Positions 5,599 through 52,811 of a stretch of DNA of 64,000 bases are shown here, in pieces. Position numbers and translations under genes: made by a program. Origin of the DNA: Paecilomyces variotii (lineage: Eukaryota); NCBI GenBank assembly GCA_004022145.1, contig RCNU01000001.1; one strand, given 5' to 3'. Below the pieces are notes generated by a model. It had not been told where the DNA came from. It saw only the letters and a program-made list of their open reading frames with translations, and ran no database searches. How positions within the stretch are numbered: position 1 is the first letter of the stretch; the number at the start of each line of letters is the position of its first letter.

Positions 5599-5915
5599 TA
5601 ACATGGAAATGAAACTCTGCGATGGAAATGAATGTTATGAGGCAACGAAGAAAAGCGAAATATGCTGTCGTCTGAATTGATATAATTTGGATCGGGGAAC
5701 TTGAAGCTGCAATGTTCATAGCCAAAATTATACTATGTCAATATTATCACTGTCGTTTACCAAGATATAGAACCCACGCCAAGATACATGACCTGAGAAT
5801 GTCCAACGTGCTTCTGTCTTTCGAACGCGACTATGGCATAACTATGTCTTCTTCGCAGCCAGAGTAAAAAAAAAAAAAGAACGCAAAAAGTATAGAACCA
5901 CGAGGGTTAGGGAAC

Positions 5916-6029
5916 CACCCGACGTGGGGATCGAACCCACAATCTTTTGATATCGTATATGTCATGTTTTAGCTGTTTAGCTATTCATGAGATTAGAAGT
6001 CAAACGCCTTACCATTAGGCTAGCCGGGC
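5916..6029 (-). tRNA. tRNA-Arg(TCT) with an ~42-nt intron
   Basis: Minus strand: acceptor GCCCGGC/GTCGGGT, D arm GCCT-AATGGTA-AGGC, anticodon arm TTTGA-CTTCTA[intron]A-TCAAA, T arm GTGGG-TTCGATC-CCCAC. An oligo-T run follows downstream on the minus strand (A-run near 5866-5878). Confidence 0.95.
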
Positions 6030-6677: not shown

Positions 6678-9600
6678 TCAACTAACTTCTCGCCCGATAG
6701 CGCGAAGCCGATCGATATCCGTCTTTTTCAGCGTGACCTTGTCAAAGTTTCTGGGAAGCTCATAACCGTTCCTGGATAATTCTCATTAGTACAAAGTCGA
6801 CCCAGGTACGTACTGCAAGATGACAAAGGAAGAACAACGGGAGATGGCACAAACCTGATATATTCGATCTTGATATTTCTGGCTCGGTCTTTCAGTTGCA
6901 CCTGATCTCTGTCCTCTAACTTGGGCCCATCTTCCATCACGTCATCCTTTCTTTTGAGTGTTGCCCAACTAACGCCATAATTCTCGATCAGGTAGATGAG
7001 TCGCTCATTCTCTTCATTACTCCATCGTCGACGGGCGCGAGAATAATCTGGATATGCAGGGCGGCTCTCAACGGGTTTAGGTTTAGGTTCGGATGTCTGA
7101 TGAGGTTTCTGGGTCCTTGGCTGCCCACTGAGTGCTGAAAACCGATCCATCACATTGCGTATGTGGGAACGATGGTGGGATCGATCTTCAACAGGCGTTG
7201 TCCTCTCCTGACTGGGCCTTCGATGAGAGGATGCTACCTCTGGAGTTCGCCGCACAGTCTCATCAAGGGTGCTTTGAAGTTGCCTCTCAGCATCATTGTC
7301 AGACACATCATAGTCAAAAAGCCTTGCACGCTTTGACGGAGAGAGAATTGGCTTTTCGGTTCTTTTCCGCCGCACATCAACAACTCGCTGATCTTGGCTG
7401 AACTCGTCTTCGCCAGATTCATCACTGTGATCAGCAGTGTGTTTGCGTTTCCTCGGGTTGCTCGGTCCAGCACTAGGGGTCTCAGAACCAATATTTATTG
7501 GAGATACCCTGTGGGCATTTGCCTGGCGGTCAATAAAAGAAGGGCCTCGTTCGTCTTTCCCAGACGAAGCTTTGTGTTGCATAGCTGCGGCTAATATCTG
7601 CTTCGAGGAAGGAATATTCACCACAGGTTCTCGAGCCCTGCTCTGGCTCGTAGTAGTATTATTATTATCATTACGAGTCCCGGGTGCCAGCCGCTTAGGA
7701 TCTCTTGGAGCAGCGCGGGCAGAAGGACTAGGAGGTCGTAGGTCCCAGTCATCATCATCATCATTTAGAGTGATCTCCCACTGAGAGTCAGCAACAGTAA
7801 TTTGTTCAGGTTGAGGCGCGGGTTGCCCCCGGAAGGTGCGGCGTGGATCGGGCGACATCGACATAGAGGGCCCATCTCTGGACTGTGGTCTCAGAGATAT
7901 TTCCGTGAGAACATTGCGGCCGGGAACAACACTGGTGGCAGATGCTTTGGCAGCGTGCTGGGAAATGAACCCTGCAAAATCAGATGTGTCACTAGGCTCT
8001 GGCGCATCAGAGGTGGCGCGAATCAGGGATTCTCGTCGTGGCTCTTGTCGGTGAATATATTGAACTGCGAAGCGTTTGAACCATGAACTAATTGTTCGTG
8101 AACAACCTGTCAGTCTTGGGGAATTCACTCGTCTTTGGGATTGATCGAAAAACTCACCCTTTTGCTCGTCCCAAGTCAAACTCGGGGGCAGGCAGCAATT
8201 CCTTTCTAAGTTGCTGCGGCTGGGATCCACGAGGTGGTGAAGACTGTTCCCCGATGGAGCCTTCCACATCTTGTTGCTGCTGGGGCTGGGATTCATGAAC
8301 TATTGAAGGATCTTTTCTAACGGGCGTTCCTGCGTCTTGTTCCTGCGATGATTCCCCTGCAGAACTGCCGAAACTACCCCGTCTAGTGATTTCCTGTTCG
8401 AGTACATCACGGACATCCTCGACGGATGGCTGGGCCTTCAGCTCTTTGTCTATTTCCTCGTTTCTTTTGTACAACCATCTTCCTACCGCGACAACGAATT
8501 CGGACCACGGGAATGCCGACTCTAGGCCTTCATATTCCACTGGAGGTTGACTGCCAGTAAAGTACTGGCTGATATGGTGGATGCGTGCTTTCACCTGTTT
8601 CCTCATGTCTTTGGGTAGACACCCATCCTCATCTTGGAGCTCTGCCAGATTGAAGCCTCGTAGTTCCAGGTCGCCGGATTCGTCATCGTCTGCAAGTGGT
8701 TCATTAAAAAAGACGTCCTCAACGACGCCTTCCGGGTTGAAGTCATCCAGTTTTCGCGCTTCTAGCTTCATCTTAAGGAACTGTGTCCTGAGGTCCAGAG
8801 CCAGGTCGGAAGTCAGTTGGTGCGTAGTACTCTTGCCACTTGTAGGGTTTCCCTTGGTGGTGCCATGAAATACCAAACCGCTCATAAAAGGCATCGGGAA
8901 TTTGCCTTCCAAATCGTAGAGGACATGCTCCGTTGCGCGACGAGAGGTGAGGACCTCCAGAGCGAGTCGGGCGCAGTTTGCCTTGTATAGGATCCCATCT
9001 GGACGCCATCGCTTTGGGGCTGACCCGGGGATACTACGAGGCTTGACGGATGGCAAGGTCCGTGACACGTTCGCGACATCGATGTATGTCTGGTTACCGA
9101 AGTACTTTGCTTCCCCTATGAATTTTGATCGAAGACGGTCGAGTTTTTTGCTCTGGGGACTTTTTGGGTCCTGCAGCTTCTTTGCCAGATCTAGGAGATC
9201 GGTACTAGTCTGTGCCGCAGGCAACAGAAACTCGAGAACGCTGGATGCCGTTCTTTGGAGATCAGGGAGCACTTCGACCATCATATATGGATCCATCTCC
9301 CCGGACTCATGATCAGAATCAGTCGGGAGGAAGGTCGTCCCAGAGATGTTTACCGTTTCCTCAGGGAGCTCTTCTACGATGGTATTGTCCGCTGAACGCA
9401 CCATGGAGTGACGCGTAGAGTGGACTGGAGACTCCTCTTCGACAACAGCAAGTTCTGTGAATAATCATCAGACAATGAGCGTTCCATCCAGGGAGCATAT
9501 TAACGCTCTGTGTGAATGAGAGCATAACAACAAGATCGGGCAATGACGGTAGCCACTTTGCACTAAGGGAATTATGACACTATACGATGACGCCTTCAAC

Positions 9601-9961
9601 GCGTATGTGTAGAACATTGTCGAGGTTCGAAGGCAGAACATGATTATTTCTAAAGCAACAATAGGAACTTACCCTTCCCCTTTGCCATCCTCTCAGCTTT
9701 CCCACGTGCGCCATGTCGACTGTCAAGCGAACTTTTCGGGATCCCGATCTCTGTAGCATGGCTCTTCAGGCCGACTGCTTCGAGCTCGCGACTCTGACTT
9801 CTTGTGGTTCGCCGCCTTGAAGGACTGACAGACTGTGATTTATAACGCGATGAACGGTTTTTTAACTTCTTTGAGGTTGGAGTATCGACCTGTTTTGCCG
9901 TGGCGGCCATGTTGATGCCGTCGCTGGCAACGGAGGATTGACGCGTCGCGGGGCGCGCCAT
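6678..9961 (-). CDS. Telomere repeat-binding factor-like protein (TRF/Taz1-type, C-terminal telobox Myb domain); exons 9961-9673, 9454-8158, 8087-6855, 6771-6678
   Basis: Myb domain RRRWSNEENERLIYLIENYGVSWATLK...RDQVQLKDRARNIK has the telobox signature (LKD[KR]xRN). A helical N-terminal block resembles a TRFH/dimerisation domain (inference). Three GT..AG introns join ORFs 9650-10186, 8154-9404 and 6728-8296 in frame and end RNGYELPRNFDKVTLKK...EVS*. Confidence 0.85.
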
Positions 9962-10192
9962 CGCGGGCGGAGAGGAGCGGAGGCGAAACTTCTCCAGTGG
10001 GTTGATGAACGCCGACATCCACGACGCGGCAAAGTATGCTGCTGCCAACCAACCAGTACAGAGAAGGTAGTCAGGAGAAAATACCAAGAGAAAGAAAACA
10101 AAAAGGGGGCGAGCGATAGGGGAGGTTCTTCTATTGATGATCGTCGGTCGCACTTGTGTTCTGGTGATGCTGTAGCGTGAGGACAACTACTC

Positions 10193-10362
10193 TTAACCTA
10201 GGTTAATCACTGGACGCCAAGTAAAAGTGGGGATCAGGGGTTCTGACCAATCAGAATTTAGCCATAACCGTAACCCTAACCCATAATCCTAAACCCTAAC
10301 AATATATCAGGCAACAAGGCACCAAGGGTTATTGGGTTAGGGTTTGAAATTACCCAGTTAGG
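10193..10362. repeat. Interstitial telomere-like repeat cluster (TAACCC block facing a TTAGGG block) plus a 14-bp palindrome
   Basis: TTAACCTAGGTTAA 10193-10206; TAACCG-TAACCC-TAACCC-A-TAATCC-TAAACCC-TAAC 10265-10300; AGGGTTA-TTGGGTTAGGGTTT 10325-10345; GTTAGG near 10357-10362. Confidence 0.85.
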
Positions 10363-11332
10363 AAAGAGATCGCCGGAGGTCATACTGATACTGCGTCAAC
10401 GGTGTGTCTACAGTTCACTGGAGGTCGTGAAGTTGCGCTAATGGAGGCATCAATTTATCTATCTTGCAGTTGCGACCTGACTGTTCTTCTGTAAGATGGT
10501 CAAGATCCATCTGATCTATCTTCCAAGTTGAATGTATTTGTGGCGATCAGACACGCGATGAGATGAAGAGAAGGGGAGGACTGTTAGAGAGCTCAGAGCT
10601 ACTGAGAATGAACAGGGACATATGATTTCTCAACCATCAAGCTACAGCATAGGTTCCAACGGCCTTAACATGTATACATACTCCAGGGCGGCGTCGTCGG
10701 GGCCGATGATACCTAGGAAGAGAGACTAGGTATGCGGAGGAGTATGGGCAAAATGCGTACAGAGGCCTGTTGTCATCTGCATCACCTGTCTAGGACTTGT
10801 CTGAGACCTGTCTGTCGAAGATAAACTGGCTCTGATTATAATAATATACCTGAGACCGTAGTTGGAATTCGATTCCGGCTGGTGGCATTTGGGTAGTTTT
10901 CACTAGACCGATCCGATCGGTGGGATAACTTCAAATACCCTGCGAAGATCTAGGGACCACATGATGCCCCCTTAAATTTTGTGTGCCACGATCTGTCATG
11001 TTATAATTACATTGCGTACTGTCTGATTCATTATATTGTGATGCCGCAGTTCCATTGTGTGCCTCGGTCATGATACCATCCTCCCAGGGTTGGTCTATAA
11101 TTATATTGTCCCATCCTCGCATTAAGCAGTCACCACGAATTGTTCGAATATGCCTGTGGGAATAAAAGAGAAAACGTACACCAAGAAAAGAGCAAAGAAG
11201 CACCCGTGCGGTTATTAAACGAAGTAAGACTAAGTACTACAAAACTGAAAAGACCCGATACCGTGTCCTGTCTATATTTAAACCCTGCTTCCAAGGCACT
11301 TTTGAGTAAAGAAGCATCGCTTCATCGCGAAC

Positions 11333-13045
11333 TCAGTATATCGCTTCGAAACAGTAGATAAGTCCGAAGATAAGGAAGGAGATAGCGCCGCCGAAGGTCA
11401 CTGGATGAAGATCAGTATGTGAACAGCACATGACAGAAAATGGGATGAGATATACATACCGACACGCATGCTGACTTTGCCTGCGATAGCTCGGCCTCCG
11501 ATGACTGCAGCCGCAGTACAAACACCGTGACCGCTGATAGCTCCGACCGTAACCCACCAATAGTCTTGTCCAGCAGCCATGGCGATGGTTGCGATCTGAC
11601 TGCGGTCTCCCCATTCTCCTAGAAACGTCATGACAAACGTCTGCACCCAAGCAGGAGTCAGGAGGAAAGAAAACAAATTGTTGAAACCGATGAGGACGCT
11701 GCGCCAGCTAGCGCTGGGAGCGGGAGAAGAACTCCGGGAAGAGGAGGATGATGGACTGTCAGGCGGCGATGGCAGACGGTTAGCCGAAGACCGCGACTTG
11801 CGTCGTCCGCCTACCCGCCCAGCCTCCAGGGCATACGGGCTGATCGAAGAGCGGCGTCGACCCATCTGGCTCTGTTGCTGCTCTTTCTCCTCCAGCTCCA
11901 TCTCTACTTCTCTCATTTCTTCGCCGACACCTTCATCCGGCGACATCTCGCGAGCTTCCTTCAGCATCTTCGCACCAAAAACCAAGAACAGGATGGCCGC
12001 AAGGAAGTTGGTGAACGATTTTGGGATCAGCGTAGGAACTGCATGTCCTAACACTGCGGACAGGACAGTCATCGTAATAAGCGCCGAGAACGCAGCGGAG
12101 AAAACGAGCAGGCGAGGGTGGCGCATGGCCATCAGTGCAGCGACGAGGAAGGTCTTGTCGCCAATCTCGGAGAAGATTATCATTGTAAAAGATAGAATTA
12201 GAGAGTGAATGGGGCTAATAACGCTGCTCTCCTCCATTGGGATTGTCGCATCCAACGAGGAAGATTTGCCCTTGGACGACTTGGGAGTGCCAACAGCCAG
12301 TTGATCGCCCTTCACAGGCGCAGGAGATTTGGGGAGGGGGATATCATGAGGCTTTTCGGGGAGGTCTGCTGGCTTCTATATCATCGAGGTCAGAAAAAGA
12401 AAGATCAATCATGGTTCATTCCATTGTTCTCACCTCTAGGATTGTCGCTCCACTATCACCGGTCTTCGTATCCTTGGAGGAGCTGTCATCCGCCGCCGAG
12501 ATCTTGACTTGCTCGCTGGGAGGAAGTGGCGGAGCTTCCTTTGGTGCTCCCGGCACCTTGTCGGACACAAGCTTGCTGGTCTTGCTCTTCTCTGATACAC
12601 CACCCTCTGTTCCCCGCGTGCCTTCCTTGGGGCCCAACCTATGCGGATCGTCCATCACACCGTCATTTGAGTGTGGGATGGCTTTGCCGTCCGATGCCAG
12701 TTTTTCCGCAGTAGCCACCTTCTCTTCCGACGTTATCAAAGCCTCATTGGGATCCGTCTCCTTTGCCTTCTTACGGTCTCGTTCTGCGCCGGTTTCGACC
12801 CATGGACCTTGGTGTGGCAGACCATCCTTACCATCTATCGGAGCGTCCAGCGTTCCCTTCGGTGCTGCCTTGGGTGAAGCTAAGATTTCTGGTGCTGAAA
12901 GAGGTACATCTGCTGAAGATGCTTCCCGGCGGTCTAGGGCAGTTGGTGTTGATAAACCGTTGTCCGGTACTGCTTCAGCAATGGCCGCGGGAATGACCTG
13001 CAGTAACAACAGAGCGAGAGAAGGGGAGAGGCGGGCGAATTTCAT
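11333..13045 (-). CDS. GDT1: GDT1/UPF0016 Golgi Ca2+/Mn2+:H+ antiporter with long luminal N-terminus; exons 13045-12434, 12375-11460, 11400-11333
   Basis: Two E-x-G-D-[KR]-[TS] motifs (EIGDKT, EWGDRS), signal peptide, canonical introns. Confidence 0.95.
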
Positions 13046-35556: not shown

Positions 35557-38500
35557 ATGGACACCAGAACGACGATGGGAGACAATCACCCCGATGAGCG
35601 CAGGGTCCGTGAGCTGTATCGCTACTTTCAGCCCTCCAACCCGGCCGCGCTCAACGAGGGCTGCGAGATCTACCCCGACGATCTGGTCACTGAAGCCACT
35701 GCCGCCGCCTCCGTGCTGGTCGACAGCTTGGGGGATCGTTCCAGTCCCAATGCCACTCTCACGTCGCTGGCGCAGTTGGCAGCGTTGCGTCTGAATGCCC
35801 AGCGCGCCTTGATTAGGTATTCTTTAAATGATTCTGTTCCTCCTTGTGTGTCTGTGTGTTGATTTCCTCCCTCCCAGTGTTGTGGACCGTGAAACACAAT
35901 ATTTTATCGCCGAAGCCACCAGGTCGCTCAATCTCCGCGACCCCTCCAAGTACGAGAACGAGGAAGATGTCCTCTGGGCTGGATGTTCCGCCGTCTCCCG
36001 GAAAGGCAAGTTGTGCGAGGTGAGTACAGAGGAGCACTCAATGGAGGATAGAAGAGGGATGAATAAAATGACATGCAACCCGCCGTTGCTGATAGAAGTG
36101 CTACTAGACTACTATCGCATTGCCCCCCTCAGATCGCGACCAGTATTCGTTCTATATCGTCAATGATCTCAACGAAGACGATGCATATAAAAAATTGCCA
36201 CTGCCCGCCCCCTCGTCCCCCTTCCGATTCTACGCAGGCACGCCATTGACAACGACGAAGAAGGAAAATATCGGGACCTTTTTCGTGCTAGACACGGAAC
36301 CGCGAAATGGTCTGACGGATAGTGAGAAGTCGACCATGGGGACGCTCGCCACCTTGGTCATGGACTACCTGAGAGTCAGCCGGCAAGCATCAGAGGGACG
36401 GCGCGCCGCACGATTATCCCATGGGCTAGCCTGTTTTGTTGAGGGGAGCTCCAGTCTGGTTAATACGCCTTCGACCAAGACTCTCAAGCTGCCAACTCCG
36501 TTAACCTCTGCGGGAACATCTCGCGCCGATTCCTTGTGTACCAACACCCCGCCTTTATCCTCACGCGGCCGTGGAAGCAGTAGAGAGGGTGGTGCCGGTA
36601 GGTCACGCAGCGGTGGTGCAGAGTTGGAACGGTGCAGCACTGTGTCGGAAGAGAAGGCGGAAACGGGTTCATCCGACATAACGCTGCCCGAATGGCTCAA
36701 CGGCAAAGGTGAAGCGAAAATCGGGCCGGAGGAGGTGCATGGCAATCTGTGGGCGTTCCGGAGAGCGGCCAATTTGCTTCGGGAGAGTCTGGAAATCGGA
36801 CAGGAAGGCGGCGTGATTTTCTTGGAGAGCAGCTCAAGCCCCTGGCTCGATGTCGATTCGGGAAGGGATGACTACTTCGCCGAGGCCATCGCCCCAGCAC
36901 CTGTTCTGGCTGTGTCCACCAACGACGAGCCATTTGCACCGGAACCAGGGTCGACGGCGTCCTGTGAAGCAGCCAACTTCAGCCGTCGCTTTCTACAGCA
37001 GTTGCTGAAGCGTTATCCGAAGGGGAAGATCTGGAGCTTCCACGATGATCGGACTCTGTTCACGTCGGATGATGAAAAATCTCATGAGGATGCGCCGGAG
37101 GACTCTCAACCCTCTGTCAAAACCACCAAAGCTCCGGAAATGAAAGCAAGGGAGAAAAAGAAGTGGAAATCGACAGAAACTGCAATGCTCAACGCCTACT
37201 TCCCCGGTGCTAATCAGATCCTCTTCGTCCCTCTCTGGAACCCTGCCAGTTCCCAGTGGTTCGCCGGGTGCTTCTGCTGGAACAAGGTCGAGACGCAAGT
37301 TTTCTCCTCTGCAGTGGAGCTGAGCTCAGTGATGGGCTTTGGCTCGTCCATCATGGCAGAATGCAGCCGCGTGGAGTCTTTGATCGCGGATCGCCAGAAG
37401 GGGGATTTCATCGGCAGCATTTCACATGAGCTACGAAGCCCTCTTCATGGCATCCTAGCCGCCGCAGAGTTCCTCGATGGGACGCACCTCAACGATTTCC
37501 AGAAATCCCTACTGGATACGATCAATGCCTGCGGACGGACGCTGCTGGATACGATGAATCAGGTCCTAGATTTCAGCAAGATTGTGGCACTGGAAAAGAG
37601 CTGGCGATTGATGAGACGTAGCAAGGACACGCCACGGGAGATCAAGAGCTCCGAGAATATTTCTGCTTACTTGGATACGTACGTCGCAACGGATGTGGCG
37701 CTCTTAGCGGAAGAAGTGGTGGAAGGTGTCTGTCTGGGTCACTCGTATGGGCGAGTCAGCACGGCAGGCGACGTGGCTCTCCCCGGCGACCGCGATAGTC
37801 GATCCCTGTCGCAGCTTCGAGAAGCCAGCGACCGTCCTGGCCTCCAGATCATTCTCGATGTGGCCAATGGGGACTGGACTTATAAGACTCAGCCGGGTGC
37901 GCTGCGTCGGATCATCATGAATATTTTCGGAAACGCCATGAAATATACGGATAAAGGACTGATCACAGTGCGATTGGAGTCAACAGTTATCGGAAATATC
38001 TCTCCCACGACTCCCACAGGATCAAACAAGAAAGAGATTGTCGTTGTGACCGTGTCAGACACCGGGAAGGGCATCTCAGATGAGTTCCTCCGCGGCCGCC
38101 TATACACGCCTTTTGCTCAAGAAGATACCTTGGCTGTTGGAACAGGCATGGGCTTGTCTATCGTACGGAGCATCGTCAAGACTCTTGGTGGCAGCATTCA
38201 TATTCGCAGTCGCCCCGGGGAGGGTACCACTGTCAGAGTGTCATTGCCCCTAGGGCGACCAGGAGTAGATGACGTTGTACCGGAGACGCCCCGATTGCAG
38301 AGGAGCCCAAAGGATATGTGCGTCGCACTCCGTCAGCTCCAGGAGAGTTACAAGGGTCGGAAAGTTGCCATCTATGGGTATAACTCAGAGTCTGTTCACG
38401 CTGATACGGACCGGCTGACTATTCTTGCGCGCTATGTCACCGATTGGTTTGGTCTGGATCTTGTCAATTGGCCGCCTACCTGCCCGATCGATGTTCTTCT

Positions 38501-39583
38501 TGCAGACGAAAATGTCAACGTCGAGGATGTGAAACACCAGGTTCCGGCATATCTACCATGTGTTCTGATCCTCTGGAGCAATACGATCAACTACAACAAG
38601 ACAACCAGAGATTGGTCAACCCTTGCGACTTTCGTGGACTTTATCCACAGGCCGACAGGGCCCCATAAACTGTCCAGAGCTCTTGTCCGATGTCTGGGGC
38701 GATCTCGGGCCCCGCTTCCCATTTCCAAGACAGTGCAGGATCAACGCACTATGCTGTTGGAAAATGCAGGGCCAACGGGCCTGTCGCCAGACGATCAACC
38801 GAAGACGGCAGGTAGATCGAAGAGTTCAGATGTTTCGCAGCGATCACAGACGAGCTCACCTCAGGAGGGCATCACATCACCGGCTGCGCCTGGTGTGACA
38901 GATCTGTCTTATCCAACGTCATCGGGAGATTCACAGCGCTCTCTCGAAATTCGGGAAGGACGGTTTGCAAGGAGATCCCTACCCACGGTCCCCATCATTG
39001 ATACAGAAAACCCTCTTGCTGCTCGCCCACCTGCGCCTTCTCTGTCAGGTAGAAGTAGCTCCGTTGAATCCAACCGGGCCACACGAGTCCTTGTCGTGGA
39101 TGACAACCGAATCAATCTGCGGTTGATGCTCACATTCATGAAGAAACGAGACTTCGCCGTTTTGGATGCGGCTGAAAATGGCAAGATGGCAGTCGATGCC
39201 GTGGAGCGCATGCAGGAGGGGTACAATATTATCTTTATGGGTAAGTGGGACATTTCTTTGTTGGGTATGAAATTTATCAGAGTACTAACTGTGTTTTAGA
39301 CATCTCGATGCCTGTGATGAACGGTTTCGAAGCGACACGAGCGATTCGCGCTCTAGAGAGAGAGCGTGACGGCTGTGGCCCTGCCACGATCATCGCGCTA
39401 ACTGGACTGACGAGTGCTCGCGACGAGACCGAAGCACTATCGTCAGGAGTGGATCTGTTCCTGACCAAGCCAATTTCTTTCAAAGAAGTCTCTCGGCTAT
39501 TAGACGAATGGCAGCAGAAGCCACGTGATGGATTGCTCTCCCCGTCTTCCGAGGAGGACAAAGAGCAAGAGAAAAAGTCATAA
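35557..39583 (+). CDS. Hybrid sensor histidine kinase (GAF-like, HisKA, HATPase, receiver); exons 35557-35816, 35878-36019, 36108-39240, 39300-39583
   Basis: GAF-like RFYAGTPL; H-box ISHELRSPLHG; N-box GNAMKYT; G1 DTGKG; G2 GTGMGL; receiver VLVVDDN...FMDISMPVMNG...KP. Confidence 0.95.
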
Positions 39584-43462: not shown

Positions 43463-45192
43463 TCAAGATAAGAGCGTTGTATAACGACGATGGGCCCGGC
43501 AGACACCTTGGGTCTTGTTAAGCGAAGCCATATCCAGAGCCCACGCCATGGTACCACCAATGCATTCCTTGTTGGCATATGCCTTCTTCAAAGCAAAGGT
43601 CTCACTATCATCATATGATGCCCTGTAGTCGTTATTAGCCTTTTCTCTTATAGTAATATCACCCGAGTTTTTCATAAGGATAAACATACCATTGCTTGTC
43701 GCCCCAAGTAATGTACTTGATAGCCGCGGTCTTGTCTAGCACGGGCTTGAGGTTGTTTTGCGAAATGATAGTGTCGATCTCTGCATTGATCAGCGTACCC
43801 GCCGAGTTTGAGCATGGTCCAGCCGTTCCGGCGCCTGAGGCAGCACATCCGGGCTTCGTGCAAGAGCTGCTGCTCAATGTGAATGTGTGTCCATAATAGG
43901 CCAACCCGAGAGTCACATTGCCGGGACTAATGCCCTGGTTCCAGAGCAAGTCGAGTGCTTCGTCGATTTCTGGAAATGCATCATTAGTCTCTTGTCTTTT
44001 TAACCTTGGTCACGGGTAGATTAGGCTTACCAGTAAGATTGGTATGGGGCTGTGCTAGCAGAGGGCTATCCCACGTTCCATGAAGGTCATAGGACATAAA
44101 GTTGATCCAGTCAAGGTAGGGCTCCATAGCCTTGAGGTCATAACCTTTCAAATAGTCTGATAACCCGTCAGTATATCAAAAGGTTGGAGACAGATTCATC
44201 CACGACCAACTTACAAGCACTAGCCGGCACTGTGATGGTAATTCCTTTATTCTTCAACGAAGCCCTCATCTCCTTGGCCAAGCTCACAAAATTGGCTGTA
44301 TCGGCGGAGGAACCACCCAGATCAGTAGCAGCTGGATATTCCCAATCAATATCGATGCCATCGAATCCATACTTGTCCATGTATGCGGAAGCAGAGTTAA
44401 TGAAGGCGGTCCGGGTCGACTTCGAGGCAACCATGGTCGAGAAAGGCTTTGCGCCGAGGCCATATCCTCCGACGGCTATGTAGACCTTCAAATTCTTATT
44501 CTTCTGCTTCAGAGACATAAGTTGCTTGTAGAGGACGGTGTCATTGGAAGCCGATGGTGCAATCTGGCTACTATCATTCAGAACTGCAAACGCGAAATTG
44601 ATATGTGTCCACGCCGATGCGTCGATGTTGTACGGTAAGTATACGTCGCAGGGGCGCGTGCTAGCCCAGCTTTCGTAGTAGCCGACGGTTCGACCCGCAC
44701 TGCTATTGGGCTTGCATTGGGTACTGATCATGTCAAGTTAGTTTGATATCCACGACAAAGTAGGCAATAACGAGTTAATATGAACGACATACGCCTTACT
44801 CGACTTCTCAGTGATACAATTACTCTGGCATCCTTTACCGCAGTGGTCGGGGCCAATGCCACAGTATCTGAACGCGTTTTCGTTAGCAAGGGTAATTGGT
44901 TAGAGACTTGAGCATGGGCTATTTACCCAAATTTCGAGCAGCATTGGCCGGCAGGGCACTTCTCCCGTCCGTGCGGAGCACCCACTGTGATAAAATCAGC
45001 ATATGCTTGCAGACATTGCCCAATAATCCAGTATCAGTCAGGATACATAAGCTATCACTTACCACCACATTCAACCGCCTTCTGAGAGGTACGACGAGCC
45101 AACAAGCCGAGATCCGCAGCAGGTGTAGCAGATACCAACGACGAAAGAAGGAATATACACCATAATGCAACCGACGAGCGTAAGCGGTGCAT
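43463..45192 (-). CDS. GH18 chitinase with N-terminal CBM18 (subgroup C-like), multi-exon
   Basis: Signal peptide MHRLRSSVALWCIFLL; hevein CG..CPAGQCCSKFG/YCGIGPDHCGKGCQSNC over three exons; VGYYESW, THINFAFA, catalytic FDGIDIDWEYP, NFMSYDLHG, GGTMAWALD. Confidence 0.92.
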
Positions 45193-51305: not shown

Positions 51306-52811
51306 TCAGTGCATGATCCTTGCTGAGGTGCGGTTTGTGCTGCTCGTGCTGTTTGCCACACCCTTCCTCATCGCATCAAGATGGCTCCAGTCATAAGTAT
51401 CCTCACCCAGACTCCACGCCATCACCCCGCCCAGCTTCTTCGCGGCCACGATATCTGAGAATTTCTGAGTGATCAGAGCCGGCGTGTCCCATGTCCAGAA
51501 AAGGTTGACTTCGCTATCCCAGTAGTACTGCCCTCCAGCTACCTTGTCAGTTGTTCCGTTTTCTTGAGCTCGTCGCCAAGAATCCGTGATAGAGATGCCT
51601 TTGCATTCTCCATAATCAGACATGCATCCAGTGTTGCAGAAATCAGAAGTGGTACCGCTGGAGATGATAACCAAGTTAGCAGTAGTCCTATTCACCGCTC
51701 CGGGAATAATTGCTCACCATGAACCATACTGACTGCAACACTGGCCGGAAGGACATTTCGTGCCTTTGTCAAACCCACAAGTCCCGTCCGTAGACGTCTT
51801 CAAACCGGATGGGGGAGGTGCCATATTCGCCTTCTCAAACGTGAGAGCTCCTGATTTCCCATTGTCACTTCCATCTGGGTTCTCGAGCGAAACGACCTTG
51901 CATCCAATTGGGTGCGTCGCGCAGTCGGAGCTCGGATCGGTGGTGAACCACTTAGCATAGTACGCGATACCGAGGTTTATCTTCGCGGGATCCAGTCCGA
52001 TGGCCGTGTAGTTGTTGACGCTCTGTAGAGATCCTTGGATGCTAGTGTGATGCTTGGTAACGTTGTCACGACGATTCATCAGGTCGTAACTCATCACATT
52101 GACAAAGTCCACAGATGGCCAGATCTTTGGACCCGTCTCGTTCGTAAAGGCGATCATATCGCGATGAAGGCCTGGAACAGCGATAGAAATCAATTTGTCC
52201 TTTCCAACCGCTTTGCGTAGAGCTTGCAGGAAGAGCGGATAAGTCTGGATTTCAGAGACTTTGTCGGAGTTAGGAATCTGTTTGTAATCCTGTCCGTTAC
52301 CGCCAGGGTATTCCCAGTCGATGTCTATCGTTTTGTCAGTCTATTTTCTCTTCGACTTTAAAACCTTAATTCTTTCATATGAAGCCATACCAACACCATC
52401 TGCCCCGACGGATTCCAGCATCGCGGCGACATTCTTTGCATAGAGAGTCCTCGACGCATCATCCTTGGCTCCTGCGGAGAAACCAGAGGTATCACCCCAT
52501 CCTCCAATAGCTATCATTATTTTTGTATCCTTGGAGAAACGGCTACGCATCGAGGACACGGACTGAAACGGCGTATACTGTCCCGCTGGATCGCTTGTGA
52601 ACAGGGTCGAGTTGGCAAATCCCATGATTGCATGAGTAATGCCTGTAGTCTGCGAACTATCGGGGAGGTCCGTTACATGGTACCTAAATCATTTATTAGA
52701 CTGGATATCTTGTAAATTTCATGCTGGATTGACTTACTGATCGATATACATGACGAATCTCAGAGCCGTAGCCTGGCCCACTAAGAGGCCCAGTGCCAGA
52801 AATATGAACAT
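51306..52811 (-). CDS. Secreted GH18 chitinase with a CBM18 (hevein) module inserted within the catalytic domain; 4 exons
   Basis: Leader MFIFLALGLLVGQATA; AIGGWG; DGV/DIDWEYPGG; VMSYD; insert STDGTCG..CPSGQCCSQYGS/CGTTSDFCNTGC; then FWTWDT and GGVMAWSLGED. Confidence 0.92.

What the first reader, a model, noticed from the sequence alone, without database searches (positions are those of the whole stretch)
9961..10362. Telomeric repeats in the promoter of the telomere-repeat-binding protein gene: candidate autoregulatory telomere sensor
Seen: the only TAACCC/TTAGGG cluster I noticed in the 64 kb lies about 300-400 bp upstream of the ATG (9961, minus strand) of a gene ending in a telobox Myb domain, next to a CCAAT box (~10247). 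It has about 6 C-rich units (10265-10300) facing about 3 G-rich units (10325-10345). Established: TTAGGG is the common Pezizomycotina telomere repeat and telobox Myb domains (TRF1/2, Taz1, Tbf1) bind it. Inference: the protein binds its own promoter, so free protein not titrated by chromosome ends would set its own transcription and tie dosage to telomere length. Binding by Tbf1- or Tay1-type factors is an alternative. I know of no description of this circuit in filamentous fungi.
Basis: partly seen in the sequence, partly recalled or inferred. Interest (0 to 1): 0.88.

Follow-up and report, generated by a model that had tools for sequence, protein, structure and literature searches.

The report
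Telomere-repeat sites upstream of Tbf1 gene
A mould gene for a telomere-repeat-binding protein carries a conserved cluster of telomere-like repeats just upstream of itself, which suggests that the protein helps set its own production, as already reported for the related gene of baker's yeast.

Summary
Window 10264-10345 holds the only dense telomere-like cluster in the 64 kb: 27 telomeric 5-mers per 100 bp, next best 8, and 0 of 200 simulations reach it. It lies 303-384 bp upstream of the ATG at 9961 (minus strand), beside a CCAAT box.

The gene (Paecilomyces variotii, 970 aa) belongs to the Tbf1 family. Its C-terminal Myb domain best matches yeast TBF1 (E 1.5e-9). Its predicted N-terminal helical domain best matches the S. 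pombe and S. cerevisiae Tbf1 helical domains (Z 17.5 and 14.8).

Three other divergent Eurotiales-like species were recovered from metagenomes. All three have AACCCTAA/TTAGGGTT motifs 170-440 bp upstream of the orthologue. In two of them this is a significant cluster and the top-scoring spot of the locus. In the third there are only isolated motifs, not above chance. The rest of the promoters does not align.

So this is a conserved cis-element made of Tbf1-type sites. Self-binding is the best reading, but it is inferred, not shown. Tbf1 binding to its own promoter is already reported in S. cerevisiae, so this is a new member of a known kind. The telomere-length-sensor idea is untested.

The parts
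10264..10300 (.). Proximal block of telomere-like units. It is C-rich on the + strand and G-rich (TTAGGGTT twice) in the sense of the gene. It holds AACCCTAA at 10272 and 10292.
10301..10325 (.). 25-bp non-telomeric spacer between the two blocks.
10326..10345 (.). Distal block: GGGTTA tt GGGTTA GGGTTT on the + strand (AACCCTAA on the minus strand at 10337-10344). It forms a 12-nt perfect inverted repeat with 10272-10283.
10346..10362 (.). Degenerate tail with one TTACCC and one GTTAGG.
10247..10251 (.). CCAAT box, reading ATTGGTCAG in gene sense. The same ATTGGTCAG lies beside the cluster in L004 (7286-7294). It is absent within 500 bp upstream in L001 and L005.
10172..10184 (-). 13-nt block GTCCTCACGCTAC (gene sense), shared with L001 2743-2755 in otherwise unalignable promoters. 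It is a candidate core-promoter element.
9962..10147 (-). 5' leader covered by RNA contigs (X18 reaches 10027; X17 reaches 10112 and 10147). It holds an in-frame upstream ATG at 10018-10016.
9673..9961 (-). Exon 1 of the Tbf1-family gene. The intron 9455-9672 is confirmed by one spliced RNA contig.
8158..9454 (-). Exon 2. Positions 8418-9296 encode the Tbf1-type (TRFH-like) helical domain.
6855..8087 (-). Exon 3, a low-complexity linker and the start of the Myb domain. The intron 8088-8157 is inferred from splice signals and reading frame.
6678..6771 (-). Exon 4, with the stop codon at 6680-6678. The Myb/telobox domain spans 7039-6729, across intron 3.
10936..11027 (-). Poly(A) ends of the upstream neighbour, a GDT1-family gene. 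Poly-T loose ends lie at 10936 (X18) and 11027 (X17). These mark the far border of the intergenic stretch.

Best explanation
The cluster is a conserved cis-regulatory module built from five to nine degenerate Tbf1-type sites (AACCCTAA/TTAGGGTT, that is, telomere-repeat units). It lies in the intergenic stretch upstream of the P. variotii Tbf1-family gene.

The most likely mechanism is that the gene's own product recognises these units through its telobox Myb domain and so feeds back on its own transcription. Tbf1-type proteins carry a TRFH-like helical domain, which dimerises in the TRF family. In budding yeast they act as general regulatory factors that exclude nucleosomes and mark promoters.

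Shown here: the cluster, its conservation in other species, the family of the protein, and the fact that the mRNA reaches to within 117 bp of the cluster.

Inferred: that this protein, rather than another TTAGGG binder, occupies the sites; that occupancy changes transcription; and the sign of the feedback.
For: 1. The cluster is real and unique in the window: 27 telomeric 5-mers per 100 bp against 8 for the next peak, and 0 of 200 simulations reach it. All 3 of the window's AACCCTAA matches lie in it.

2. The protein belongs to the Tbf1 family.
- Residues 879-954 best match PDB 8x6d 'Protein TBF1' (E 1.5e-9). The next matches are S. pombe trf1/Tbf1 (E 0.002-0.003). The recognition-helix stretch QVQLKDRARN aligns to QVQLKDKARN.
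- The AlphaFold model of exon 2 has 270 of 431 residues at pLDDT 70 or more.
- Its best fold matches are the S. pombe Tbf1 helical domain (Foldseek E 1.3e-4; VIA Z 17.5, rmsd 2.7, 209 aligned) and S. cerevisiae N-terminal TBF1 (E 6.3e-4; Z 14.8). These stand above Taz1 (Z 9.7), TRF2 (9.0) and TRF1 (8.4).
- Sources name three Aspergillus orthologues 'telomere repeat binding factor family protein'.

3. Conservation. A metagenome scan gave 5 loci from 3 distinct organisms, with 34-48% protein identity to the query.
- L001 has CAACCCTAGGGTTTTAGGGTTTGGGG at 2683-2710, about 230-255 bp before its ATG. This is the top-scoring 100 bp of 14 kb (14 against 6; 0 of 200 simulations reach it).
- L004 has a run of GGGTTT/TTAGGG units at 7307-7366, about 310-365 bp before its ATG. 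This is the top-scoring 100 bp of 18.7 kb (17 against 10; 0 of 200).
- Over window + L001 + L004 + L005 (115,214 bp; L002 and L003 dropped as duplicates of L001), 6 of the 9 AACCCTAA matches lie within 450 bp upstream of the four orthologous ATGs.
- Outside these motifs the four promoters do not align.

4. The element follows the gene, not the neighbour. The upstream gene is GDT1 in the window, L004 and L005, but a sulfotransferase in L001.

5. Position. RNA contigs reach 10147 and one is spliced at 9454/9673. The neighbour's poly(A) ends are at 10936 and 11027. So the cluster lies in the 788-bp stretch between the two transcripts, 117-198 bp beyond the known 5' reach of the mRNA.

6. Precedent.
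[quoted passage not shown] - The N. crassa Tbf1 homologue was recovered on TTAGGG repeats (PMC4650311, passages).

7. Another strain (run X4) differs at 12 listed substitution places and one 4-nt insertion in 2801 nt (the contig row counts 13 other letters and 4 gap letters). None of these is inside 10264-10345. Divergence is so low that this is weak evidence.
Against: - No binding or expression experiment exists. Occupancy by this protein is inferred from family membership alone.
- The third species, L005, has only isolated motifs: AACCCTAA at 7268-7275 and ACCCTAA at 7532-7538. Its best 100-bp score is 8, tied with another place in the locus, and 47 of 200 simulations reach it. That locus holds 3 further AACCCTAA matches elsewhere.
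- Number, orientation, spacing and distance of the units differ among the four species.
- The same paper reports that C. albicans Tbf1 does not bind its own promoter, so the circuit is not universal.
- N. crassa has at least three Myb-type TTAGGG binders (Tbf1, Tbf2, Tay1), and any of these could be the factor at the sites.
- A contig of an RNA library (X16, 9563-10730) covers the whole cluster together with part of intron 1. This may be DNA carry-over, but a longer or antisense transcript through the repeats is not excluded, so 'promoter' rather than 'leader' is not settled.
- Pfam finds no TRF-domain hit in 4 of 4 orthologues scanned. The helical-domain assignment rests on a predicted model.
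- Only three other species were available. All are unnamed metagenome contigs and all are Eurotiales-like.
Confidence: 0.55

Rival explanations
1. The sites are real regulatory sites but are read by another TTAGGG-binding factor, such as a Tay1/Teb1-type two-Myb protein, a 'Tbf2'-type paralogue or another protein. The Tbf1 gene would then be a target of cross-regulation, or simply one member of a growth/ribosome regulon that uses this motif. It would not be self-regulated.
For: The N. crassa TTAGGG pull-down lists several direct binders, including Tay1 and Tbf2 (PMC4650311, passages). S. pombe Tay1/Teb1 is described as a transcription factor (PMC7952879, passage). The motif is a general promoter element of ribosomal protein genes in A. 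fumigatus and N. crassa. In L005 the motif lies next to CACGTG both at the orthologue and at an amino-acid permease promoter, which fits a shared regulon code.
Against: The motif matches the Tbf1 consensus as I recall it (aRCCCTaa). The gene product has the Tbf1-type Myb domain. Self-binding has a precedent in S. cerevisiae. Nothing here favours another factor over Tbf1. The two readings can also both be true.
Confidence: 0.2
2. Self-binding is coupled to chromosome ends: protein not held by TTAGGG telomeres binds the promoter array, so the gene's output reports total telomere length.
For: The promoter units have the sequence commonly used as the telomere repeat in this fungal group (general knowledge, not verified for this genome). 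The array is multi-copy, as a sink-sensitive site should be. Human TRF2 shows telomere-length-dependent occupancy of distant promoters, including TERT (PMC6264879 and PMC12483519, search listing and start of abstract only).
Against: No data here bear on telomere length. It is unknown whether this protein sits on telomeres in Eurotiales. The 'most TRF-like' proteins of yeasts act away from the terminal repeats (PMC7952879, passage). If the motif also serves many ribosomal protein promoters, these form a second large sink, and a growth-linked role is simpler.
Confidence: 0.1
3. The array is a boundary or insulator rather than a feedback device. Tbf1-type sites would exclude nucleosomes and shield the gene from read-through or chromatin effects of the co-oriented upstream gene.
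For: Tbf1 sites in budding yeast have insulator and anti-silencing activity and contribute to nucleosome exclusion (PMC6410037, passages). The upstream gene is co-oriented and ends 590-680 bp upstream of the cluster in the window. It is co-oriented in all four species.
Against: This would not explain why the densest telomere-like spot in 14-64 kb falls at this particular gene in three species. Other co-oriented gene pairs in the same loci lack such arrays. It also overlaps with the best explanation, since the same protein would bind.
Confidence: 0.1
4. The array is a neutral interstitial telomeric sequence: a scar of telomere fusion or telomerase-mediated break repair, or a fast microsatellite, without function.
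For: Short interstitial telomere repeats arise in this way in many eukaryotes. Earlier notes of this scan found young, lineage-restricted telomere-like inserts in algal promoters (AI notes, not checked). The units are degenerate.
Against: The array is present upstream of the orthologue in species whose proteins are only 34-48% identical and whose promoters otherwise do not align. The order is C-rich block then G-rich block when read 5' to 3' on either strand, the reverse of a head-to-head telomere fusion. It is unchanged in a second strain.
Confidence: 0.05

Closest known systems
Binding of Tbf1 to the TBF1 promoter in Saccharomyces cerevisiae (Lavoie et al. 2010, PMC2834713, passage seen; Preti et al. 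2010, Mol Cell, not held, abstract recalled as listing 'the TBF1 gene itself' among targets)
   Same: The same protein family, shown by both the Myb domain and the helical domain. The same kind of motif (telomere-type CCCTAA core) upstream of the factor's own gene.
   Different: In yeast the binding is shown by ChIP. Here there is only sequence and conservation. Here the sites form a multi-copy inverted array, and they presumably equal the organism's own telomere repeat, which is not so in S. cerevisiae. The same study saw no such binding in C. albicans.
Tbf1 sites of ribosomal protein and snoRNA promoters in Ascomycota (Hogues et al. 2008, as cited in PMC4138321; passages seen; Tbf1-like motif at N. 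crassa ribosome genes in bioRxiv 10.1101/2025.02.27.640643, passage seen)
   Same: Telomere-type motif used as a promoter element, often as two palindromic copies, and reported for A. fumigatus, a member of the same order.
   Different: The target here is the regulator's own gene, not a ribosome component. No ribosomal protein gene was found in the window to compare with (40 ORFs scanned, none matched a ribosomal protein family).
Telomere-length-dependent promoter occupancy of human TRF2 (PMC6264879, PMC12483519; search listing and start of abstract only)
   Different: A different protein and a different kind of site. The human case was shown by experiment. Nothing of this kind was tested here.
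Plant telo-box (AAACCCTAA) in promoters of translation-apparatus genes (recalled, no paper read here)
   Same: The same sequence core. The window has TAAACCCTAAC at 10290-10300.
   Different: A different kingdom and different binding proteins. This is a resemblance only.
Interstitial telomeric sequences left by chromosome fusion or break repair (review PMC6410037, passages seen)
   Same: Telomere-type repeats at an internal position.
   Different: The orientation is the reverse of a head-to-head fusion. The element is conserved at one gene across species.

Membership tests
Tbf1 / TRF family of duplex telomere-repeat-binding proteins (the gene product) | Single C-terminal telobox-type Myb domain with the LKDKARN-type recognition helix | tested here: met
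   residues 879-954 match PDB 8x6d 'Protein TBF1' at E 1.5e-9, then S. pombe trf1 at E 0.002-0.003. The Pfam Myb match is only weak (E 0.003-0.007, below the curated cut-off).
Tbf1 / TRF family of duplex telomere-repeat-binding proteins (the gene product) | N-terminal all-helical TRFH-like (dimerisation) domain | tested here: met
   Model. Foldseek: 6k5s (S. pombe Tbf1 helical domain) E 1.3e-4 and 8x6e (N-terminal TBF1) E 6.3e-4, with the next hit at E 0.12. VIA: Z 17.5 and 14.8, then Taz1 9.7, TRF2 9.0, TRF1 8.4. This rests on a predicted structure. Pfam gives no TRF hit.
Tbf1 / TRF family of duplex telomere-repeat-binding proteins (the gene product) | Sequence-specific binding to duplex TTAGGG | not testable with these tools
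   Needs EMSA or ChIP.
Tbf1-type promoter site | Match to the Tbf1 consensus (aRCCCTaa, recalled from the Preti 2010 abstract) | tested here: met
   AACCCTAA occurs three times in the cluster and once in each of the L001, L004 and L005 upstream regions.
Tbf1-type promoter site | Lies upstream of the transcription start, at the border of the nucleosome-free region | tested here: inconclusive
   RNA contigs reach 10147, 117 bp short of the cluster. Contigs cannot fix a start, and one RNA-library contig (X16) covers the cluster. Nucleosome data are not available.
Tbf1-type promoter site | Kept at the orthologous promoter in other species | tested here: met
   3 of 3 further species have the motif. 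It forms a significant cluster in 2 of the 3 (L001, L004) and does not exceed chance in L005.
Autoregulatory transcription-factor circuit (as S. cerevisiae TBF1) | The factor's cognate motif in its own promoter | tested here: met
Autoregulatory transcription-factor circuit (as S. cerevisiae TBF1) | The factor occupies its own promoter in vivo, and changing its level changes its own transcription | not testable with these tools
   Needs ChIP and reporter or depletion experiments.
Interstitial telomeric scar (fusion or break repair) | Head-to-head order, G-strand repeats followed by C-strand repeats when read 5' to 3' | tested here: not met
   the C-rich block (10264-10300) precedes the G-rich block (10326-10345) on the + strand, and by symmetry on the minus strand too.
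Interstitial telomeric scar (fusion or break repair) | Lineage-restricted or polymorphic, not tied to one gene | tested here: not met
   Found at the orthologue in divergent species and unchanged in a second strain.
Telomere-length sensor by titration (TRF2-like partition) | Promoter occupancy or output changes with telomere length | not testable with these tools
   No data here. The species' own telomere repeat could not be verified either.

The most novel reading that the evidence does not exclude
In moulds whose chromosome ends and Tbf1 sites share the same TTAGGG unit, the multi-copy array in the Tbf1 promoter may compete with the telomeres for the protein. Tbf1 synthesis would then report the total length of telomeric DNA. 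This would be a built-in telomere-length homeostat that budding yeast lost when its telomere repeat diverged.
Probability: 0.1. Interest if true: 0.85.

Novelty: new member of a known kind. Interest (0 to 1): 0.45.

Why it matters
Filamentous fungi keep very short, tightly set TTAGGG telomeres, and how the dosage of their duplex-repeat binders is controlled is not known.

A conserved array of the factor's own recognition units upstream of its gene gives a concrete target for mutation. It can be used to test self-regulation of a Tbf1-family protein outside budding yeast.

It also allows a test of whether such a loop is coupled to chromosome ends in an organism where promoter sites and telomeres have the same sequence.

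It suggests further that the Tbf1 self-binding seen in S. cerevisiae but not in C. albicans may be old rather than a yeast novelty.

The result is useful but not surprising to a specialist. The motif class, the protein family and the self-binding precedent are all known.

Tried and rejected
- Whole-genome tests were not possible because no genome is held for this window. This ruled out motif enrichment over all promoters, a look at ribosomal protein and snoRNA promoters, and a check of the species' own telomere repeat.
- The scan of prokaryote genome contigs for stray fungal contigs matched 73 pattern stretches, and none was a relative.
- Earlier findings of this scan hold no look-alike of this stretch or of the protein.
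- The homologue search limited to residues 860-970 returned only 2 proteins, both Paecilomyces, so it gave no named distant Tbf1.
- Pfam found no TRF-domain hit in the window's exons or in 4 orthologues. The family was settled by PDB sequence and fold searches instead.
- Rfam found nothing at threshold in 9900-11100. The only match was SNORD46 at E 0.91 and 17.8 bits, against a gathering score of 40, which I read as chance. The whole window holds only one tRNA. A hidden snoRNA gene served by the array is therefore not supported.
- No ribosomal protein gene was found. Of the 61 ORFs of 130 aa or more listed, 40 were scanned. The other 21 were overlapping frames or had been scanned. Ribosomal protein genes with short exons would be missed.
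- RNA cover: the two cDNA runs (X17, X18) have no contig over 10148-10935.
- The four promoters do not align, so no common architecture could be derived. CCAAT beside the array is seen in 2 of 4 species and CACGTG beside it in 1 of 4.
- G-quadruplex idea: each block has only three GGG runs, so I dropped it.
- The Preti et al. 2010 paper is not held.
- No paper found by searches describes telomere-type sites in the promoter of a Tbf1-family gene of a filamentous fungus. The library lacks most subscription journals, and no supplement was opened.
- The search for the telomere repeat of P. variotii gave nothing usable.

Full report
THE OBSERVATION

Window 10264-10300 reads, on the + strand, ATAACCG TAACCC TAACCC ATAATCC TAAACCC TAAC. 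After a 25-bp spacer, 10326-10345 reads GGGTTA tt GGGTTA GGGTTT. A CCAAT box lies at 10247-10251.

AACCCTAA occurs three times in the 64 kb, and all three lie in 10272-10344. TTAGGG as a hexamer is rarer than expected in the window (12 against 22.6 expected), and 3 of the 12 are in the cluster. A 12-mer search with one mismatch gives a single match, which alone is not significant.

Clustering is the strong signal. The best 100-bp stretch holds 27 telomeric 5-mers. The next peak in the window holds 8. None of 200 Markov simulations exceeds 12. The two blocks contain a perfect 12-nt inverted repeat. 'About six' C-rich units really means two perfect units, one near-perfect unit and two to three degenerate ones.

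THE GENE

Reading the minus strand gives a four-exon model: 9961-9673, 9454-8158, 8087-6855 and 6771-6678, for 970 codons. A 970-aa Paecilomyces variotii protein (P0001) matches at 100% over exon 2. One spliced RNA contig confirms intron 1, with a joint at 9454/9673. Introns 2 and 3 are inferred from splice signals and reading frame.

The C-terminal residues 879-954 best match the solved Myb domain of yeast TBF1 (E 1.5e-9), then S. pombe trf1/Tbf1. Pfam sees only a weak Myb match and no TRF domain.

I folded the exon-2 region with 14 relatives. The model has 270 of 431 residues at pLDDT 70 or more. Foldseek puts the S. pombe Tbf1 helical domain and the S. cerevisiae N-terminal TBF1 structure first (E 1.3e-4 and 6.3e-4), and the next hit is at E 0.12. 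VIA-align gives Z 17.5 and 14.8 for these two, followed by Taz1 at 9.7, TRF2 at 9.0 and TRF1 at 8.4.

Both defining domains are thus of the Tbf1 type. Three Aspergillus orthologues are named 'telomere repeat binding factor family protein' by their sources.

WHERE THE CLUSTER SITS

RNA contigs of two metatranscriptome studies cover the leader up to 10027 (X18) and up to 10112 and 10147 (X17). Poly-T loose ends at 10936 and 11027 mark the 3' ends of the upstream, co-oriented gene, which Pfam assigns to the GDT1 family.

The cluster therefore lies in the 788 bp between the two transcripts, 117-198 bp beyond the known reach of the mRNA. A start site cannot be fixed from contigs. One contig of an RNA library (X16, 9563-10730) spans the cluster and part of intron 1. 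That may be DNA carry-over or a longer transcript, and I leave this open.

A second strain (X4) differs from the window at 12 listed substitution places and one 4-nt insertion in 2801 nt (its contig row counts 13 other letters). None of these is inside the cluster. Divergence is so low that this is weak evidence.

RELATED SPECIES

No genome is held for the window, so I scanned JGI metagenome contigs with the orthologue alignment. Of 180 pattern matches, 5 encode a relative. L001, L002 and L003 are one organism at 99.9-100% identity. This leaves three distinct species:
- L001, nearest to the Rasamsonia and Paecilomyces proteins (41-48% identity);
- L004 and L005, nearest to Penicillium proteins (40-46% identity).

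L001 has CAACCCTAGGGTTTTAGGGTTTGGGG at 2683-2710, about 230-255 bp before its ATG.

L004 has a run of GGGTTT/TTAGGG units at 7307-7366, about 310-365 bp before its ATG. ATTGGTCAG lies beside it, the same inverted CCAAT context as in the window.

L005 has only AACCCTAA at 7268-7275, followed 4 nt later by CACGTG, and ACCCTAA at 7532-7538.

In L001 and L004 the orthologous upstream region is the top-scoring telomere-like 100 bp of the whole locus (14 against 6, and 17 against 10), and 0 of 200 simulations reach these values. In L005 the score is 8, tied with another place in the locus, and 47 of 200 simulations reach it. So two of the three further species give clear support and one gives weak support.

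Over the four non-redundant sequences (115,214 bp), 6 of the 9 AACCCTAA matches fall within 450 bp upstream of the four orthologous ATGs. Apart from these motifs the four promoters do not align. In L001 the upstream neighbour is a sulfotransferase rather than GDT1. The element therefore follows the Tbf1-family gene.

WHAT IT MOST LIKELY IS

It is a conserved cis-regulatory module made of Tbf1-type sites.

In the literature I read (passages only), Tbf1 is a general regulatory factor that binds many promoters and contributes to nucleosome exclusion and insulation (PMC6410037; PMC7952879). [quoted passage not shown] A Tbf1-like motif marks N. crassa ribosome-component promoters (bioRxiv 10.1101/2025.02.27.640643). 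The N. crassa Tbf1 homologue was recovered on TTAGGG DNA (PMC4650311).

Most directly, Lavoie et al. state that probable auto-regulation of Tbf1, defined by binding to its own promoter, is seen in S. cerevisiae but not in C. albicans (PMC2834713). I also recall that the abstract of Preti et al. 2010 lists the TBF1 gene among Tbf1 targets, but that paper is not held.

The simplest reading is that the P. variotii protein binds the array upstream of its own gene. I put this at about 0.55. Occupancy, effect and sign are all inferred.

RIVAL READINGS

- Another TTAGGG binder (Tay1-type or Tbf2-type) reads the sites, or the gene is just one member of a growth regulon: about 0.2.
- The array is mainly a boundary element: about 0.1.
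It has a human analogue in TRF2 (PMC6264879, PMC12483519; listing and abstract start only), but there is no evidence for it here.
- A neutral telomeric scar: about 0.05. This is unlikely because the element is conserved at one gene across divergent species, and because the C-rich block precedes the G-rich block on either strand, the reverse of a head-to-head fusion.

NOVELTY

Searches turned up no description of telomere-type sites upstream of a Tbf1-family gene in a filamentous fungus. The library lacks most subscription journals, and I opened no supplements. The motif class, the protein family and the self-binding precedent are all known, so I file this as a new member of a known kind.

It is a good experimental handle. 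That equality could not be verified here.

SIDE OBSERVATIONS

An in-frame ATG at 10018, 19 codons upstream of the annotated start, encodes MSAFINPLEKF.... This matches the annotated N-terminus of the Rasamsonia orthologues. In L001 a related peptide forms a separate 19-codon upstream ORF. RNA contigs cover this ATG. It may be the true start or a conserved upstream ORF.

A 13-nt block, GTCCTCACGCTAC, is shared by the window (10172-10184) and L001 (2743-2755).

Noticed in passing
window 10016-10018 (minus strand); L001 2860-2919: There is an in-frame ATG 19 codons upstream of the annotated start at 9961. It encodes MSAFINPLEKFRLRSSPPA, which resembles the annotated N-terminus MAFVNPLDKF of the Rasamsonia orthologues. 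In L001 a related peptide (...STFVNPIDK) is a separate 19-codon upstream ORF that ends 18 nt before the main ATG. RNA contigs cover the window's upstream ATG, and no other ATG lies between it and 10147. It is either the true start codon or a conserved upstream ORF.
   Followed up: partly
window 10172-10184; L001 2743-2755: A 13-nt block, GTCCTCACGCTAC (gene sense), is identical in two species whose promoters otherwise do not align. It lies 25-37 nt upstream of the farthest RNA contig end. It may be a core-promoter element.
   Followed up: no
L005 7268-7285 and 13560-13690: AACCCTAA/TTAGGGTT lies next to CACGTG both upstream of the Tbf1-family orthologue (4 nt apart) and upstream of an amino-acid permease ORF (about 30 nt apart, with a second TTAGGGTT 110 bp away). 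This recalls the Tbf1 plus Cbf1 pairing reported for ribosomal protein promoters.
   Followed up: no
window 9563-10730: One contig of a random-primed metatranscriptome library (X16) spans part of intron 1, exon 1, the leader, the repeat cluster and 370 bp beyond it. This is DNA carry-over or an unspliced, upstream or antisense transcript. Not resolved.
   Followed up: no
window 10531-10538: Other strains carry a 4-nt insertion (ATGT after 10531) and T>G at 10538. These are the only differences in the intergenic stretch, and the repeat cluster itself is unchanged.
   Followed up: no
window 10936-11460: The upstream GDT1-family gene shows two poly(A) ends (10936 and 11027) and a 59-nt intron (11401-11459) that is confirmed by spliced RNA contigs of two runs.
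   Followed up: partly
window 5916-6029 (minus strand): A tRNA gene of 114 nt, so with an intron. It lies between the peptidase M20 gene and the 3' end of the Tbf1-family gene. A lone TTAGGG abuts it at 5907-5912.
   Followed up: no
window 36108-39296, 44171-44737 and 51309-52340: Other genes seen in the Pfam pass include a large hybrid histidine kinase ORF and two GH18 chitinase-like genes. The pass also found an aldehyde dehydrogenase, GPI2, an MFS transporter and a P450 fragment at the window's start. All look ordinary.
   Followed up: no
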